A stretch of DNA of 37,121 nt from a plasmid, in the sequence record NZ_CP059766.1; one strand, written 5' to 3'. Each line of letters starts with the position of its first letter. Within the stretch, counting starts at the first letter, position 1. The position numbers are program-made. This document shows, piece by piece, positions 6,001-9,000 of this stretch.

Positions 6001-9000
6001 CAGGTGGAACATTTAGTCTAGAAGATTTATACCAAGATGTTGACGCGGTAAATGTTTATACCTTAGCAAAAAGAAATTCTGATTCAACAGCTTTATCGGC
6101 TTTAAAAACGTACTATTGTGATAAGGGTGCTATTGATAGATTTAATCAATTTGTTAAGAACAGATTTGGTTCTTCAGATAAAATCGCTTCAGTAACAAAT
6201 AGTTTATTAGAAAATGACGAAACAGTTGATATCTTAGGTGTAGGGATAATTTCATTTTTCATTGATAAAATAGTTAATAATTCACTTGGGACAGATTTTA
6301 CTTATCTTGATTTTATTGGAGATGAGGGGAAAGTTGCAAATGGATTTTCTGAAAAAATTATTCAATTTCAAGAAAATAGAAGTAAACTTAATTAAGAATC
6401 GTTTACTATTTAAACAGTGTCCTTTTCCTTTTTAAATATATACGATAAAATAAGTATATGAATTGTAAAAGGACATGATGATTATGGAAGAAATAGAATG
6501 GAATAATCTGACTCAAAATAATAAAAATAATTCTGGATGTGGAATTATCTTTATGTTTGTTATAGTTTTGGGAATAGTAGTACTTTTAATAACTGTCAAG
6601 ATAGTAGATTACTTTGCGAATACTCCTGAAGAACAAATACAGAGAAAACTTCCTGAGTTTGAAAGAGTACCACCTTATGATCCAAGAGATAATTCATTTC
6701 AAGTAAAAAAATTAAAAGAGTCTCCAAATGAAATGTGGTTTGAAGTTACAGTTGAATCAAGCGACTTCAAAGAAAAAAAGAAAGAATACAATTATATTGT
6801 AAAGGCAAAAGTATCAAAAAGATTTATTTTTAACCCTAAATTAGAAATATATAGTGTTGTAATAGAATAATAGTGTTAAAAAAATTGTAAAAGTTAAAGA
6901 AGTCAAATTCTGATGTGAAAAATAAAATATACCATGGAAGACATAAAAGAAAAACTGGATAACTAGTTTATTTAATGGCAGACCGTTAAGGCCTGCCATT
7001 TTTATGTATTTTAGCGGAATAAATATAATCATGCGGGAGTGTAAACTTACTGTTTCAAAAAGTATACTTTTTGACATGCCTTGATTTTCTTTGTTTATGT
7101 ATGGCATAATAACCACATAATACAATTTGAAACGTTTCTGATTTAATCTGATTGTTTTGAAACAATTTTAGTGAAAAAAGGGTAGATAAAAACGATGAGA
7201 AAATTTTTTTATATCCGGGTCAGTAGTTATGATCAATCGATCGAACGACAACTGATTTCCGCGAAGGAATTAGGAATCCCTGAAGAATATATATTTGTAG
7301 AAAAAGCCAGCGGCAAAGATTTTAAACGCCCTGAATATCAATTAATGAAACGGATGTTTCGAAAAGGAGATTTACTCTATCTACAATCATTAGATAGACT
7401 AGGCAGAAATAAACAAATGATTTTAGAAGAATGGCGAGAATTAACTAAGGAAAAGCAGATTGATATTTCTGTGTTAGACATGCCTCTGTTAGATACTGCT
7501 AGTTACAAGCAACTAGATGGGTTAGAGACGCTTATCTCTGACTTAATTCTGCAATTACTCAGCTATATGGCCGAAGACGAGCGGAAACGAATTAATAGCC
7601 GGCAAAGAGAAGGCGTAGAAGCTGCGAAACAAAAGGGTGTAAAATTCGGCAGAAAGAAAATTGCTTTACCTCCTGAATTTCCTGCGATCTATTCTGACTG
7701 GAAAGCAGGAAAGATAACTGCAGTCTATGCTATGGATCAATTGGGCATGAAACGAAATACCTTTTATCGACGGGTGAAAGAATATGAACATACCTTGCAC
7801 CACTTTTCTTGATAGATATAACAGCTATTAGACGGGAAGGGAGAGTTTGAAAATGGACTTAACGAATCAAAGGGTCGTTTTTACTGGAACGCTGCAGCAA
7901 ATGACACGAACCCAAGCCATCGGTTTGGTTCACTCTTTAAACGGCCATTGTCAATCAAGTGTTACTTCAAAAACAAATTTCCTGGTTTGTGGTCAGTATT
8001 CTAAGTCGTTGTTTGATGATTCTCTCTATACAAAAAAGGAACAAACCGCGCGGGACTTGATTGCGTTAGGTCATGAGATTACCATTTTATCAGAAGTCGA
8101 ATTTTATGCGTTAATTAGTCAACAGTTGAAAGAATGGCAACGGTATTTATAATCGTTAGTAAAATTTACAAGGAGGAAAATTTTTATGAAGCGAAAATCT
8201 TATGATCGTTGGGGCATTGAAATAACTAGTTTTAATCGAAATATTGCTTTTCACGTGGAGTGTGACTGTGGGGAATTAGCAAAAAGTGTTTATCAAAAAA
8301 ATTACTTTTACTGTCCTAAATGCCATCGCCGATACGGGGTACATGGAACATAGAAACGAAATAGTGCGGTAGAAAAGCGAATGAATGTAGTATATTTCTA
8401 CAAATCATTCGCTTTCTTTATTTTATAAATAGTTGGTCGAGAGATCCCGTTTTCTTTTGCAATCTCTGCAACTGGAATGCCTTGCTTTAACATGTCCACC
8501 ACGGTTTTAAAAACTAAGCGTTTTTGCGGATCTGTTGAGTTAATAGAATACTCGATTGGTCGTCCCTTATATCGGCCGGCTTTTTGAGCCAATAATACTC
8601 CTTGCCGCTGACGTTCACGAATTTTCTCACGCTCGTTTTGTGCAATATAACTTAGCAGTGATAAAAACATATCGAACATAGCGGTATCCAGGAGTTCATT
8701 TCCAGTATTAAAATCTAAAAACTGTGCATCTAATATTTTTAACGCTACTTTTTTCTGTTTCATAAAAGCAACTGTATTTTTTATATCTTCATAATCTCTT
8801 CCTAAACGATCTAGTGATGTAACGATGACGCAATCACCTTCACGGATATAATTTAGTAATTTTTGAAACTCAGGACGCTCAGTATCTTTACCACTGGCTT
8901 TTTCTTGGAATAATTTATCAATGTTAAGTCCTTCCATCATTGCCAATTGTCGATCCAAATTTTGATCTTGTGAAGATACTCGAATATAGCCAATTTTTCC

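What the first reader, a model, noticed from the sequence alone, without database searches (positions are those of the whole stretch)
7195..8372. Resolvase - standalone BRCT protein - zinc-ribbon mini-protein trio abutting, and partly overwritten by, the Tn3-element end
A 205-aa serine recombinase is followed by a 100-aa protein whose sequence fits a BRCT domain (a DNA-ligase C-terminal-like fold that is rare as a standalone bacterial protein). Next comes a 55-aa CxC...CPKC zinc-ribbon ORF with a strong SD that the 60-aa ORF cutoff missed. The last six codons and stop of the mini-ORF lie inside the Tn3-family left IR (8336-8372). Its native C-terminus was therefore replaced by transposon sequence, and the ORF may originally have been longer. 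Standalone BRCT and Zn-ribbon proteins in this position could be a plasmid DNA-damage, defence or anti-defence module, or accessory factors for the resolvase.
Basis: partly seen in the sequence, partly recalled or inferred. Interest (0 to 1): 0.55.

Follow-up and report, generated by a model that had tools for sequence, protein, structure and literature searches.

The report
Transposon-clipped relic of enterococcal plasmid backbone
The three small genes are real: a plasmid resolvase, a free-standing BRCT protein and a zinc-ribbon regulator related to pAD1 UvrC, but they are an ordinary, already-annotated leftover of an Enterococcus faecalis sex-pheromone plasmid whose last gene was clipped by a transposon.

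Summary
Window 7195-7812 encodes a 205-aa serine recombinase. 7853-8152 encodes a 99-aa BRCT protein (Pfam score above threshold; AlphaFold pLDDT 95; nearest solved folds RFC1 and LigA BRCT). 8186-8353 encodes a 55-aa four-cysteine ORF whose last 5 codons and stop lie in a Tn3-family inverted repeat (8336-8372; perfect partner at 12243-12279).

The uninterrupted gene exists in E. faecalis plasmids. It is 65 aa and ends ...RRY|KQKQGEYVAIKIIKE. It belongs to the Enterococcus-restricted UvrC family: 47% identical to the pAD1-type 'UvrA repressor UvrC', with no Pfam model.

The trio is the right end of a 4.1-kb relic (4198-8335, 98% identical to pCF10-like plasmids). In the intact plasmid the order is res, BRCT, uvrC-like, DUF6440, then the prgO/prgP/prgW partition and replication genes. 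The clipped version is ≥99% identical in about 270-290 plasmid records.

Nothing supports a defence role. Standalone BRCT proteins are common on lactic-acid-bacterial plasmids (610 records) and often sit beside serine recombinase genes. What the BRCT protein does is the only open question. Overall this is a new member of known kinds, of low to moderate interest.

The parts
3389..4197 (-). IS1216 copy. It forms the left boundary of the relic and removes the 5' end of the glycoside-hydrolase gene.
   Evidence: 100% match to IS1216 copies in L002 and L015. Homology to pheromone plasmids starts at 4194-4198. The transposase ORF is 3443-4129.
4198..8335 (+). 4.1-kb relic of the maintenance region of an E. 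faecalis pCF10/pAD1-family plasmid. It holds a truncated glycoside hydrolase, a 131-aa ORF, res, BRCT and the first 50 codons of the uvrC-like gene.
   Evidence: 98.1-98.5% identity over 4147 nt to L014 and L002. Gene order in L014 is shown.
7053..7166 (.). Putative res site of the resolvase. Palindrome GTTTCAAAAAGTA|TACTTTTTGAC (site I, 7053-7076, perfect core 7055-7074), plus two further elements with the half-site GTTTCAAA (about 7126-7141 and 7151-7166). A promoter-like TTGATT-18-CATAAT lies between them (7081-7110).
   Evidence: Repeats; promoter scan. Homology of two other plasmids (L009, L010) to the window begins abruptly at the left edge of the palindrome. That is the pattern expected for recombination at a crossover site. 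Function is inferred, not shown.
7195..7812 (+). Small serine recombinase (resolvase), 205 aa, with R8 and S10 in the YIRVSS motif.
   Evidence: Pfam PF00239, 4.4e-24. PHROG 125 covers residues 1-199, 2.9e-48. 98% identical to the resolvase of E. faecalis plasmids.
7853..8152 (+). Standalone BRCT-domain protein, 99 aa. An alternative TTG start at 7847 would give 101 aa.
   Evidence: Pfam BRCT 28.9 bits, above the 21.3 threshold. NCBIfam match to the C-terminal BRCT of PRK06195, 2.2e-20. AF2 pLDDT 95.4. Foldseek top hits are RFC1 and LigA BRCT. T11-G12, R19 and K62 are conserved in the family.
8126..8153 (+). Promoter-like site (TTGAAA-16-TATAAT, 11 of 12 matches) inside the end of the BRCT gene, just upstream of the mini-ORF.
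   Evidence: This is a consensus match only, and the region as a whole has no more such sites than shuffled sequence.
8186..8353 (+). Truncated UvrC-family zinc-ribbon gene, 55 aa. Codons 1-50 (8186-8335) are native; codons 51-55 and the stop (8336-8353) are encoded by the transposon IR.
   Evidence: Intact 65-aa allele in L002, L009, L010 and L014. 47% identical to 'UvrA repressor UvrC'. Invariant C26, C28, C43 and C46. Shine-Dalgarno AAGGAGG at 8171-8177.
8336..8372 (.). Left terminal inverted repeat of the Tn3-family element.
   Evidence: 37 nt, 100% complementary to 12243-12279.
8336..12279 (.). 3944-bp Tn3-family element carrying only tnpR (8398-9003, minus strand) and tnpA (9128-12115, plus strand). 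An internal IR-like copy lies at 12136-12164.
   Evidence: Pfam Resolvase + HTH_7, and DDE_Tnp_Tn3 + DUF4158. IRs. There is no 5-bp target duplication here (GATAC on the left, TTTAT on the right). A 77%-identical relative in L010 has a clean 5-bp duplication, GAACG.
12282..12476 (+). Fragment of a type IA topoisomerase gene on the right of the element. It is unrelated to the left flank and is followed by an IS1216 fragment from about 12531.
   Evidence: Pfam Topoisom_bac, 2.8e-21. IS1216 match.

Best explanation
The trio is the right-hand end of a 4.1-kb piece of the maintenance region of an E. faecalis pCF10/pAD1-family pheromone-responsive plasmid. It was captured between an IS1216 copy and a Tn3-family element and now travels passively on multiresistance plasmids.

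Gene 1 is the plasmid's own small serine resolvase. It is inferred to act on a multi-subsite res site just upstream (7053-7166) to resolve plasmid multimers or cointegrates.

Gene 2 is a single-domain BRCT protein of the RFC1/LigA class. It keeps the phosphate-binding residues (T11-G12, R19, K62), so it most likely binds a 5'-phosphate at a DNA nick or end, or a phosphorylated partner, as part of plasmid DNA maintenance. This step is inferred.

Gene 3 is a member of the Enterococcus-restricted UvrC family of roughly 65-75-aa four-cysteine zinc-ribbon proteins. On pAD1-type plasmids UvrC lies upstream of, and is named as the repressor of, the damage-inducible Y-family polymerase gene uvrA. In this lineage the intact gene appears to have its own promoter and is followed by a DUF6440 gene.

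In the window, transposon insertion after codon 50 replaced the conserved C-terminal GxY(V/I)x(I/L) stretch with five IR-encoded residues. Later rearrangement removed everything downstream. The mini-gene is therefore probably a non-functional remnant, while res and BRCT remain intact.
For: Origin:
- 98% identity over 4147 nt to E. faecalis plasmids.
- The intact order is GH, hyp, res, BRCT, 65-aa gene, DUF6440, then convergent prgO and prgP, then prgW.
- The clipped junction is ≥99% identical in 289 records. The 55-aa allele is in 266 records. The intact 3' end is in only 34 records.

Resolvase:
- Pfam and PHROG matches.
- Palindromic subsites upstream.
- Two independent mosaic breakpoints exactly at the palindrome.

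BRCT:
- Family matches, structure model and fold search.
- The alignment to RFC1 puts T11-G12 and R19 on the RFC1 TG and R.
- K62 is the only invariant column among 29 standalone homologues.

UvrC family:
- tblastn at 47% identity over 93% of the query, E 1e-7, to a gene RefSeq names 'UvrA repressor UvrC'.
- UniRef name 'Transcriptional regulator, UvrC family'.
- Invariant CDCG...CxxC...Y.
- On the pAD1-type locus a Y-family polymerase gene lies downstream with a perfect Cheo box 34 bp before it.

Truncation. The lost 3' end is nowhere else in the window.
Against: - No experiment or expression data were available. The repressor role of UvrC rests on a database product name and on my recollection of Ozawa et al. 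1997, which could not be read.
- The intact relatives of this particular lineage have no uvrA gene downstream, so the target of the regulator is unknown.
- The three resolvase lineages found upstream of uvrC-like genes are not orthologous. This could mean a functional coupling that the 'relic' reading plays down.
- The truncated protein keeps all four cysteines and could retain some activity.
- The res site and the promoter are pattern-level inferences.
Confidence: 0.7

Rival explanations
1. The three genes form one functional unit in which the BRCT protein and the zinc-ribbon protein are accessory or regulatory factors of the resolvase, for example controlling when or where it recombines, or handling its DNA-break intermediates.
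For: - The res-site/res/BRCT/uvrC-like unit moves as a block with different left flanks.
- A serine recombinase lies immediately upstream of a uvrC-like gene in three non-orthologous resolvase lineages.
- Standalone BRCT genes lie within about 650 bp of a serine recombinase in 4 of 5 sampled Lactococcus plasmids. Gene order, orientation and resolvase type differ among them.
Against: - From general knowledge, small resolvases with multi-subsite res sites need no dedicated accessory protein.
- The middle gene is a non-BRCT protein in pAD1-type loci and is absent in L004.
- uvrC-like genes in E. faecium plasmids sit next to ssb with no resolvase nearby.
- In Lactobacillaceae the BRCT gene lies next to parA with no resolvase seen.
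- The mini-ORF appears to have its own promoter.
- Serine recombinase genes are frequent on these plasmids, and the sample is small and partly related by descent.
Confidence: 0.17
2. The BRCT and zinc-ribbon proteins are a plasmid-borne anti-phage defence or anti-defence module.
For: - The BRCT protein gives weak matches to BRCT-bearing defence candidates: PADLOC PDC-S48 at E 0.0025 and NCBIfam GapS2 at E 0.011.
- Exonuclease-BRCT relatives occur near the ends of streptococcal and staphylococcal prophage genomes.
Against: - No PADLOC hit for the resolvase or the mini-protein. The BRCT hits are domain-level, far below any family threshold and limited to the C-terminal BRCT part of larger proteins.
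- The native neighbours are res, par and rep genes, not defence islands.
- The mini-protein's named relatives are regulators of a translesion polymerase.
Confidence: 0.05
3. The mini-ORF, or the trio as a grouping, is a chance product of AT-rich sequence and transposon insertion and has no biological meaning.
For: - The 55-aa form ends in transposon sequence.
- All copies of it are near-identical, so selection on it cannot be seen.
Against: - Diverged homologues (33-77% identity) with invariant Cys and other residues occur in more than 900 further plasmid records and in 73 protein clusters.
- An intact 65-aa allele sits in the same position in relatives.
- It has a strong Shine-Dalgarno sequence.
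Confidence: 0.03

Closest known systems
UvrC of the E. faecalis pheromone plasmid pAD1 (74 aa). It is the small regulator in the uvrC-uvrB-uvrA UV-resistance determinant and is not the excision-repair UvrC. Source: Ozawa et al. 1997, J Bacteriol 179:7468, cited in PMC7117660.
   Same: - 47% identity over 51 residues.
- The same CDCG...CxxC...Y signature and basic N-terminus.
- The same position just downstream of a plasmid serine recombinase with one small gene in between.
- A DUF6440 gene downstream in both lineages.
   Different: - The native form is 65 aa, not 74.
- No uvrA (Y-family polymerase) gene and no Cheo box follow it in this lineage.
- The gene between res and uvrC is a BRCT protein instead of the unrelated roughly 95-aa protein of pAD1-type plasmids.
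- The window copy has lost its last 15 residues.
DNA-binding BRCT domains of RFC1 (p140) and NAD-dependent ligase LigA, and the C-terminal BRCT of DnaQ-like exonucleases (NCBIfam PRK06195).
   Same: - Same fold: Foldseek top hits are 2ebu, 2k7f and LigA, with TM-scores of 0.64-0.70 normalised to the query.
- Best sequence matches are these families.
- The TG...R...K phosphate-pocket residues are conserved. The same pocket mediates DNA-end binding in RFC1 (PMC6334254).
   Different: - It is a free-standing 99-aa protein with no catalytic domain.
- It is plasmid-encoded.
- A review states that most bacteria have BRCT only in ligase and a Pol III epsilon-type protein (PMC10386641).
- No binding data exist for this family.
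Small serine resolvases with an upstream multi-subsite res site (Tn3 / gamma-delta resolvase type; plasmid multimer-resolution systems).
   Same: - Resolvase catalytic domain with R8 and S10; size of 205 aa.
- Palindromic subsites and a promoter-like site in the 140 bp upstream.
- Mosaic breakpoints at the first palindrome.
   Different: - Only 43% identical to the Tn3-family resolvase next door, and not detectably similar by BLAST to the pAD1-type resolvase.
- The C-terminal HTH scores below Pfam thresholds.
- Activity and subsite organisation are untested.
Tn3-family transposons. A 77%-identical relative is in E. faecalis plasmid NZ_CP091907.1.
   Same: - 37-nt terminal IRs starting GGGG.
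- tnpR and a DDE_Tnp_Tn3 tnpA.
- The relative makes a 5-bp target duplication.
   Different: - No passenger genes.
- No target duplication around the window copy, whose two flanks come from different genes (uvrC-like and topoisomerase). This implies a later rearrangement.
- An extra IR-like copy lies inside the right end.

Membership tests
BRCT domain (Pfam PF00533) | Profile score above the curated gathering threshold | tested here: met
   28.9 bits against a cut-off of 21.3, residues 5-89.
BRCT domain (Pfam PF00533) | Compact alpha/beta BRCT fold (four-stranded sheet flanked by helices) | tested here: met
   AF2 model with pLDDT 95.4 and pTM 0.84. Every one of the 50 best PDB hits listed is a BRCT-domain or BRCT-like (Dbf4) structure or a complex containing one, led by RFC1 and LigA.
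BRCT domain, phosphate-binding (RFC1/LigA-like) class | S/T-G after strand 1, a conserved Arg in helix 1, and a Lys at the start of helix 2 | tested here: met
   T11-G12 and R19 align with the TG and R of RFC1. K62 sits at the start of helix 2 (helix 61-71) and is the only invariant column among 29 homologues. The residue roles in RFC1 come from my own knowledge and from PMC6334254. Binding itself was not tested.
pAD1 UvrC family (small zinc-ribbon regulators of enterococcal plasmids) | Sequence homology to pAD1-type UvrC | tested here: met
   47% identity over 93% of the query, E 1e-7 against 7.3 Gb. The profile search returns proteins named UvrC family or UvrA repressor UvrC.
pAD1 UvrC family (small zinc-ribbon regulators of enterococcal plasmids) | Four invariant cysteines (CDCG ... 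CxxC) and the following Tyr | tested here: met
   C26, D27, C28, G29, C43, C46 and Y50 are invariant in 9 sequences and present in the window copy.
pAD1 UvrC family (small zinc-ribbon regulators of enterococcal plasmids) | Complete C-terminal segment (GxY(V/I)x(I/L)) after the second cysteine pair | tested here: not met
   The window copy ends ...RRYGVHGT. The 15 native residues KQKQGEYVAIKIIKE are replaced by IR-encoded sequence. The intact allele meets this feature.
pAD1 UvrC family (small zinc-ribbon regulators of enterococcal plasmids) | Lies upstream of the Y-family polymerase gene uvrA that it regulates | tested here: not met
   No Y-family polymerase gene was found in the window by phmmer with the pAD1-type UvrA, nor downstream in the intact relative L014. 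It is present in pAD1-type loci L003 and L005.
pAD1 UvrC family (small zinc-ribbon regulators of enterococcal plasmids) | Acts as a transcriptional repressor | not testable with these tools
   Only database names support this. The primary paper was not available.
Small serine recombinase (resolvase/invertase) | Resolvase catalytic domain with the nucleophilic serine | tested here: met
   PF00239, 4.4e-24, residues 4-149. The sequence shows the YIRVSS motif with R8 and S10.
Small serine recombinase (resolvase/invertase) | C-terminal helix-turn-helix DNA-binding domain | tested here: inconclusive
   Only HTH_8 at E 0.014, below threshold. The PHROG 125 profile does align through residue 199.
Small serine recombinase (resolvase/invertase) | Cognate res site with several binding subsites next to the gene | tested here: inconclusive
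   Three palindromic elements share the half-site GTTTCAAA, and mosaic breakpoints fall at the first one. No binding or recombination data.
Tn3-family transposon | Terminal inverted repeats of about 38 bp, plus DDE_Tnp_Tn3 transposase and resolvase | tested here: met
   Perfect 37-nt IRs. tnpA 7.3e-142 and tnpR 1.2e-32.
Tn3-family transposon | 5-bp target-site duplication flanking the element | tested here: not met
   GATAC on the left, TTTAT on the right. The right flank is a topoisomerase fragment. A related copy in L010 does have a duplication, GAACG.
Known anti-phage defence systems (PADLOC) | Significant match of the components to defence-system models | tested here: not met
   No hits for the resolvase or the mini-protein. 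The BRCT protein gives only PDC-S48 at E 0.0025, confined to that model's C-terminal part.

The most novel reading that the evidence does not exclude
Free-standing BRCT proteins with an intact phosphate pocket are an unrecognised, widespread component of the resolvase/partition maintenance modules of plasmids in lactic acid bacteria. They would sense or bind nicked or broken plasmid DNA. In enterococcal pheromone plasmids they would work with the UvrC-type zinc-ribbon regulator as a plasmid-encoded DNA-damage circuit independent of LexA.
Probability: 0.12. Interest if true: 0.55.

Novelty: new member of a known kind. Interest (0 to 1): 0.25.

Why it matters
For annotation:
- The 55-aa 'hypothetical protein' carried by hundreds of clinical E. 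faecium plasmids is a transposon-truncated UvrC-family regulator.
- Its E. faecium relatives are misnamed 'DNA helicase UvrA'.

For plasmid biology:
- The block marks DNA imported from E. faecalis pheromone plasmids into Inc18-type and megaplasmids. It also appears in a vanA plasmid of S. aureus.
- The IS1216 and Tn3-family boundaries show how that import happened.

The one open question is what the plasmid-borne standalone BRCT proteins do. They occur in 610 plasmid records and often sit beside serine recombinases, and no function has been assigned.

Tried and rejected
- The search for related loci with BRCT alignments A1 and A2 failed because no stretch was conserved enough. A genome-wide context survey of BRCT relatives was therefore not possible.
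- The genome-contig scan with the UvrC-like alignment gave only 7 loci.
- The single-sequence AF2 model of the BRCT protein was poor (pLDDT 55) and was replaced by the alignment-based model.
- Ozawa 1997 and Kobayashi 2010 are not held.
- I tested whether the pAD1-type middle protein is a hidden BRCT. It has no Pfam, NCBIfam or PHROG hit and no phmmer cross-match, so this was rejected.
- I looked for LexA/Cheo boxes near the trio and found none. The only GAACN4GTTC in the window is inside the 497-aa ORF at 32707-34200, which corresponds to the gene annotated repR in the closest plasmid.
- I searched the window for the lost 3' end of the mini-ORF and found nothing.
- I searched for zinc-ribbon mini-ORFs next to BRCT genes in Lactococcus, Lactiplantibacillus and Levilactobacillus plasmids and found none. 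The BRCT/zinc-ribbon pairing is therefore specific to Enterococcus.
- A profile search of the UvrC-like family against PDB sequences gave only insignificant zinc-knuckle matches.
- Pfam and NCBIfam gave only sub-threshold zinc-ribbon hits for the mini-protein.
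Full report
**1. Is it there?**

Yes. The ORF list gives 7195-7812 (205 aa), 7847/7853-8152 (101 or 99 aa) and 8186-8353 (55 aa), all on the + strand.

The 1.5-kb stretch 6900-8400 is ≥99% identical in 289 plasmid records, almost all Enterococcus. RefSeq annotates it there as recombinase family protein, BRCT domain-containing protein and hypothetical protein.

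The inverted repeat 8336-8372 has a perfect 37-nt partner at 12243-12279. Between the two lie a resolvase gene and a 995-aa DDE_Tnp_Tn3 transposase gene.

Codon 51 of the mini-ORF starts at 8336.

**2. Where the segment comes from**

The window is an Inc18/RepR-type multiresistance plasmid of E. faecium; its first 25 kb are 100% identical to pJAOU2377_3. It carries tet(S), ant(6)-sat4-aph(3')-III and aac(6')-aph(2'') among several IS1216 copies and two IS256-family copies.

Positions 4194-8335 are 98.1-98.5% identical over 4147 nt to E. faecalis pheromone-responsive plasmids. The left edge of the segment is an IS1216 copy (3389-4197) and the right edge is the Tn3-family IR.

In the intact relative pCFSAN126951_02 (L014) the gene order is:
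- glycoside hydrolase
- 131-aa ORF
- res
- BRCT
- 65-aa gene
- DUF6440
- convergent prgO and prgP
- the replication gene
- prgZ-like gene

The trio is therefore the end of a relic of that plasmid family's maintenance region. The same clipped block also lies next to Tn1546 (vanA) on an S. aureus plasmid.

**3. The resolvase**

The catalytic domain is clear (PF00239, 4.4e-24; PHROG 125 over residues 1-199). R8 and S10 are present in the YIRVSS motif.

In the 140 bp upstream there is a palindrome, GTTTCAAAAAGTA|TACTTTTTGAC, with a perfect 20-nt core at 7055-7074. Two further elements carry the half-site GTTTCAAA. A promoter-like site lies between them.

Two other plasmids (L009, L010) share the res-BRCT-mini-gene unit at 96-97% identity. 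Their homology to the window starts abruptly at the left edge of this palindrome, and the upstream DNA is unrelated. That is what recombination at a crossover site would leave. I read 7053-7166 as the res site; this is an inference.

**4. The BRCT protein**

- Pfam BRCT scores above threshold (28.9 against 21.3 bits).
- The best NCBIfam match is the C-terminal BRCT of DnaQ-like exonucleases (PRK06195, 2.2e-20), followed by LigA.
- The best PDB sequence matches are the RFC1 BRCT and LigA.
- A single-sequence model was poor. With 29 homologues the model reached pLDDT 95.4. The Foldseek hits listed from the PDB are BRCT-domain or BRCT-like structures, led by RFC1 (2ebu, 2k7f) and LigA.

T11-G12 and R19 align with the TG and R of RFC1. 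K62, at the start of helix 2, is the only invariant column among the 29 standalone homologues. In RFC1 this pocket binds the 5'-phosphate of a DNA end (PMC6334254; residue numbers from my own knowledge).

The exhaustive search found 832 relatives at E ≤ 0.001. At least 25 of the 150 best cluster representatives are proteins of 90-130 aa. tblastn finds the family in 610 plasmid records: Enterococcus 287, Lactococcus 180, Lactiplantibacillus 80. In phages it occurs only as the C-terminus of exonuclease-, ligase- or helicase-annotated proteins.

A standalone BRCT is thus unusual among the BRCT-bearing proteins described in bacteria (PMC10386641) but common on plasmids of lactic acid bacteria.

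**5. The mini-protein**

tblastn of the 55-aa peptide hits 1204 plasmid records, 1195 of them Enterococcus. One hit is annotated 'ultraviolet resistance protein UvrA repressor UvrC' (74 aa, 47% identity).

A profile search returns 73 clusters, almost all Enterococcus, with no Pfam domain. Their names are 'Transcriptional regulator, UvrC family', 'UvrA repressor UvrC' or, wrongly, 'DNA helicase UvrA'.

Nine family members share invariant M1, R3, K4, D7, W9, G10, C26, D27, C28, G29, A32, K33, C43, C46 and Y50. A conserved GxY(V/I)x(I/L) stretch follows Y50.

Uninterrupted alleles of the window gene are 65 aa and end ...CHRRY-KQKQGEYVAIKIIKE. The window copy keeps all four cysteines but loses that conserved stretch. 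The 55-aa allele is in 266 records. The intact 3' region is in 34 records.

A near-consensus promoter-like site (TTGAAA-16-TATAAT, 8126-8153) and AAGGAGG precede the gene.

On pAD1-type loci the order is res, a roughly 95-aa non-BRCT protein, uvrC, a small ORF, DUF6440, then uvrA (a Y-family polymerase). A perfect Cheo box lies 34 bp before uvrA. uvrA is the UmuC-like UV-resistance gene of pAD1 (PMC7117660). From memory of Ozawa et al. 1997, which I could not retrieve, uvrC insertions raise uvrA expression.

**6. The junction**

The native sequence reads CGC CGA TAC|AAA CAG. In the window the IR follows TAC directly.

The right end of the element abuts a type IA topoisomerase fragment and then an IS1216 fragment. 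There is no 5-bp duplication (GATAC on the left, TTTAT on the right), so the present right flank is not the original target.

A 77%-identical sister element in plasmid NZ_CP091907.1 sits 450 bp to the left, inside BRCT codons 12-13, with a clean GAACG duplication. The module has therefore been hit twice, independently.

**7. Do the three belong together?**

- The res-site/res/BRCT/uvrC-like unit is conserved as a block in E. faecalis plasmids.
- A serine recombinase precedes a uvrC-like gene in three resolvase lineages that are not orthologous: window type, pAD1 type with no BLAST similarity to it, and a Tn3-like type in LR962088.
- The middle gene can be the BRCT gene, an unrelated gene, or absent.
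- E. faecium uvrC-like genes sit near ssb, without a resolvase.
- BRCT genes lie within about 650 bp of a serine recombinase in four of five sampled Lactococcus plasmids, in different orders and orientations.
- In Lactobacillaceae the BRCT gene lies beside parA.

All of this places both small proteins in plasmid maintenance regions. It leaves a direct functional link to the resolvase possible but unproven. No zinc-ribbon gene accompanies BRCT outside Enterococcus.

**8. Defence?**

PADLOC has no match for the resolvase or the mini-protein, and only a marginal domain-level match for the BRCT protein. The native neighbours are res, par and rep genes. I consider a defence role unlikely.

**9. Verdict**

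Its prediction of a longer native ORF is confirmed.

The best reading is a decayed fragment of a known plasmid backbone made of three parts:
- an intact resolvase with its res site
- an intact standalone BRCT protein of unknown role, probably a phosphate or DNA-end binder
- a UvrC-family regulator gene whose C-terminus and downstream genes were removed by transposon insertion and later rearrangement

All three genes are annotated, and the regulator family has been named since 1997. This is a new member of known kinds. The residual interest lies in the uncharacterised plasmid BRCT family.

Limits of this work:
- No expression or biochemical data were available.
- The key primary paper could not be read.
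- The synteny sample is small.

Noticed in passing
L010 (NZ_CP091907.1) 2629-6562; window-equivalent 7887-7891: A 77%-identical relative of the window's Tn3-family element is inserted inside the BRCT gene of another E. faecalis plasmid with a clean 5-bp duplication (GAACG). This is a second, independent hit on the same 1.2-kb module.
   Followed up: yes
window 12136-12164: A second, 86%-matching copy of the inner 29 nt of the terminal IR lies just after the tnpA stop, about 80 bp inside the true right IR. Its role is unknown.
   Followed up: no
window 12280-12530: The right flank of the Tn3-family element is a fragment of a type IA topoisomerase gene, followed by an IS1216 fragment. There is no target duplication, so the element's two flanks come from different targets, which implies a recombination or deletion after insertion.
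   Followed up: partly
window 3389-4197 and 4198-6395: IS1216 has removed the 5' end of the Rv2525c-like, peptidoglycan-binding glycoside-hydrolase gene. The full gene is 2352 nt in relatives. In L014 a perfect Cheo-box-like GAACGGATGTTC lies 23 bp upstream of that gene's start (L014 2155-2166).
   Followed up: partly
L003 (NZ_CP028286.1) 1189-3974: A Tn552-like unit (recombinase, Mu-type transposase, AAA ATPase) ends about 100 bp upstream of the pAD1-type resolvase gene. This fits the known habit of such elements of inserting into res sites.
   Followed up: no
L003 7859-8071; L005 4518-4730 and 7917-8150: pAD1-type loci carry additional, diverged UvrC-like zinc-ribbon ORFs (E about 1e-8 to 1e-9) around uvrA. 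The family is multi-copy on these plasmids.
   Followed up: partly
L006-L008, L018-L020 (E. faecium, E. hirae, E. durans and E. lactis plasmids): A 68-aa UvrC-like protein lies in a topB, AbiE, ssb, hyp, uvrC-like region. RefSeq names it 'DNA helicase UvrA', which is clearly a mis-annotation.
   Followed up: partly
window 2052-2633 and 2640-3245: A second small resolvase, 50% identical to the pAD1-type resolvase, lies next to a Fic protein adenylyltransferase gene.
   Followed up: partly
L015 (S. aureus NZ_CP092548.1) 5343-6501: The identical clipped res/BRCT/55-aa block lies between IS1216 copies immediately beside the Tn1546 vanA cluster on a vancomycin-resistant S. aureus plasmid.
   Followed up: no
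L017 (Streptococcus parasanguinis contig JAHDAC010000015.1): A 3.8-kb contig with very high coverage carries the block at 100% identity, joined to the reversed end of the Tn3-family transposase. It may be an enterococcal plasmid fragment or contamination.
   Followed up: no
window 13891-15831, 21980-24314, 25237-29600: Resistance cargo: tet(S)/tet(M)-type gene, ant(6)-Ia, sat4, aph(3')-IIIa, and aac(6')-Ie-aph(2'')-Ia flanked by two IS256-family copies. IS1216 copies lie at 3443-4129, 16504-17190, 24401-25087 and 29750-30436.
   Followed up: partly
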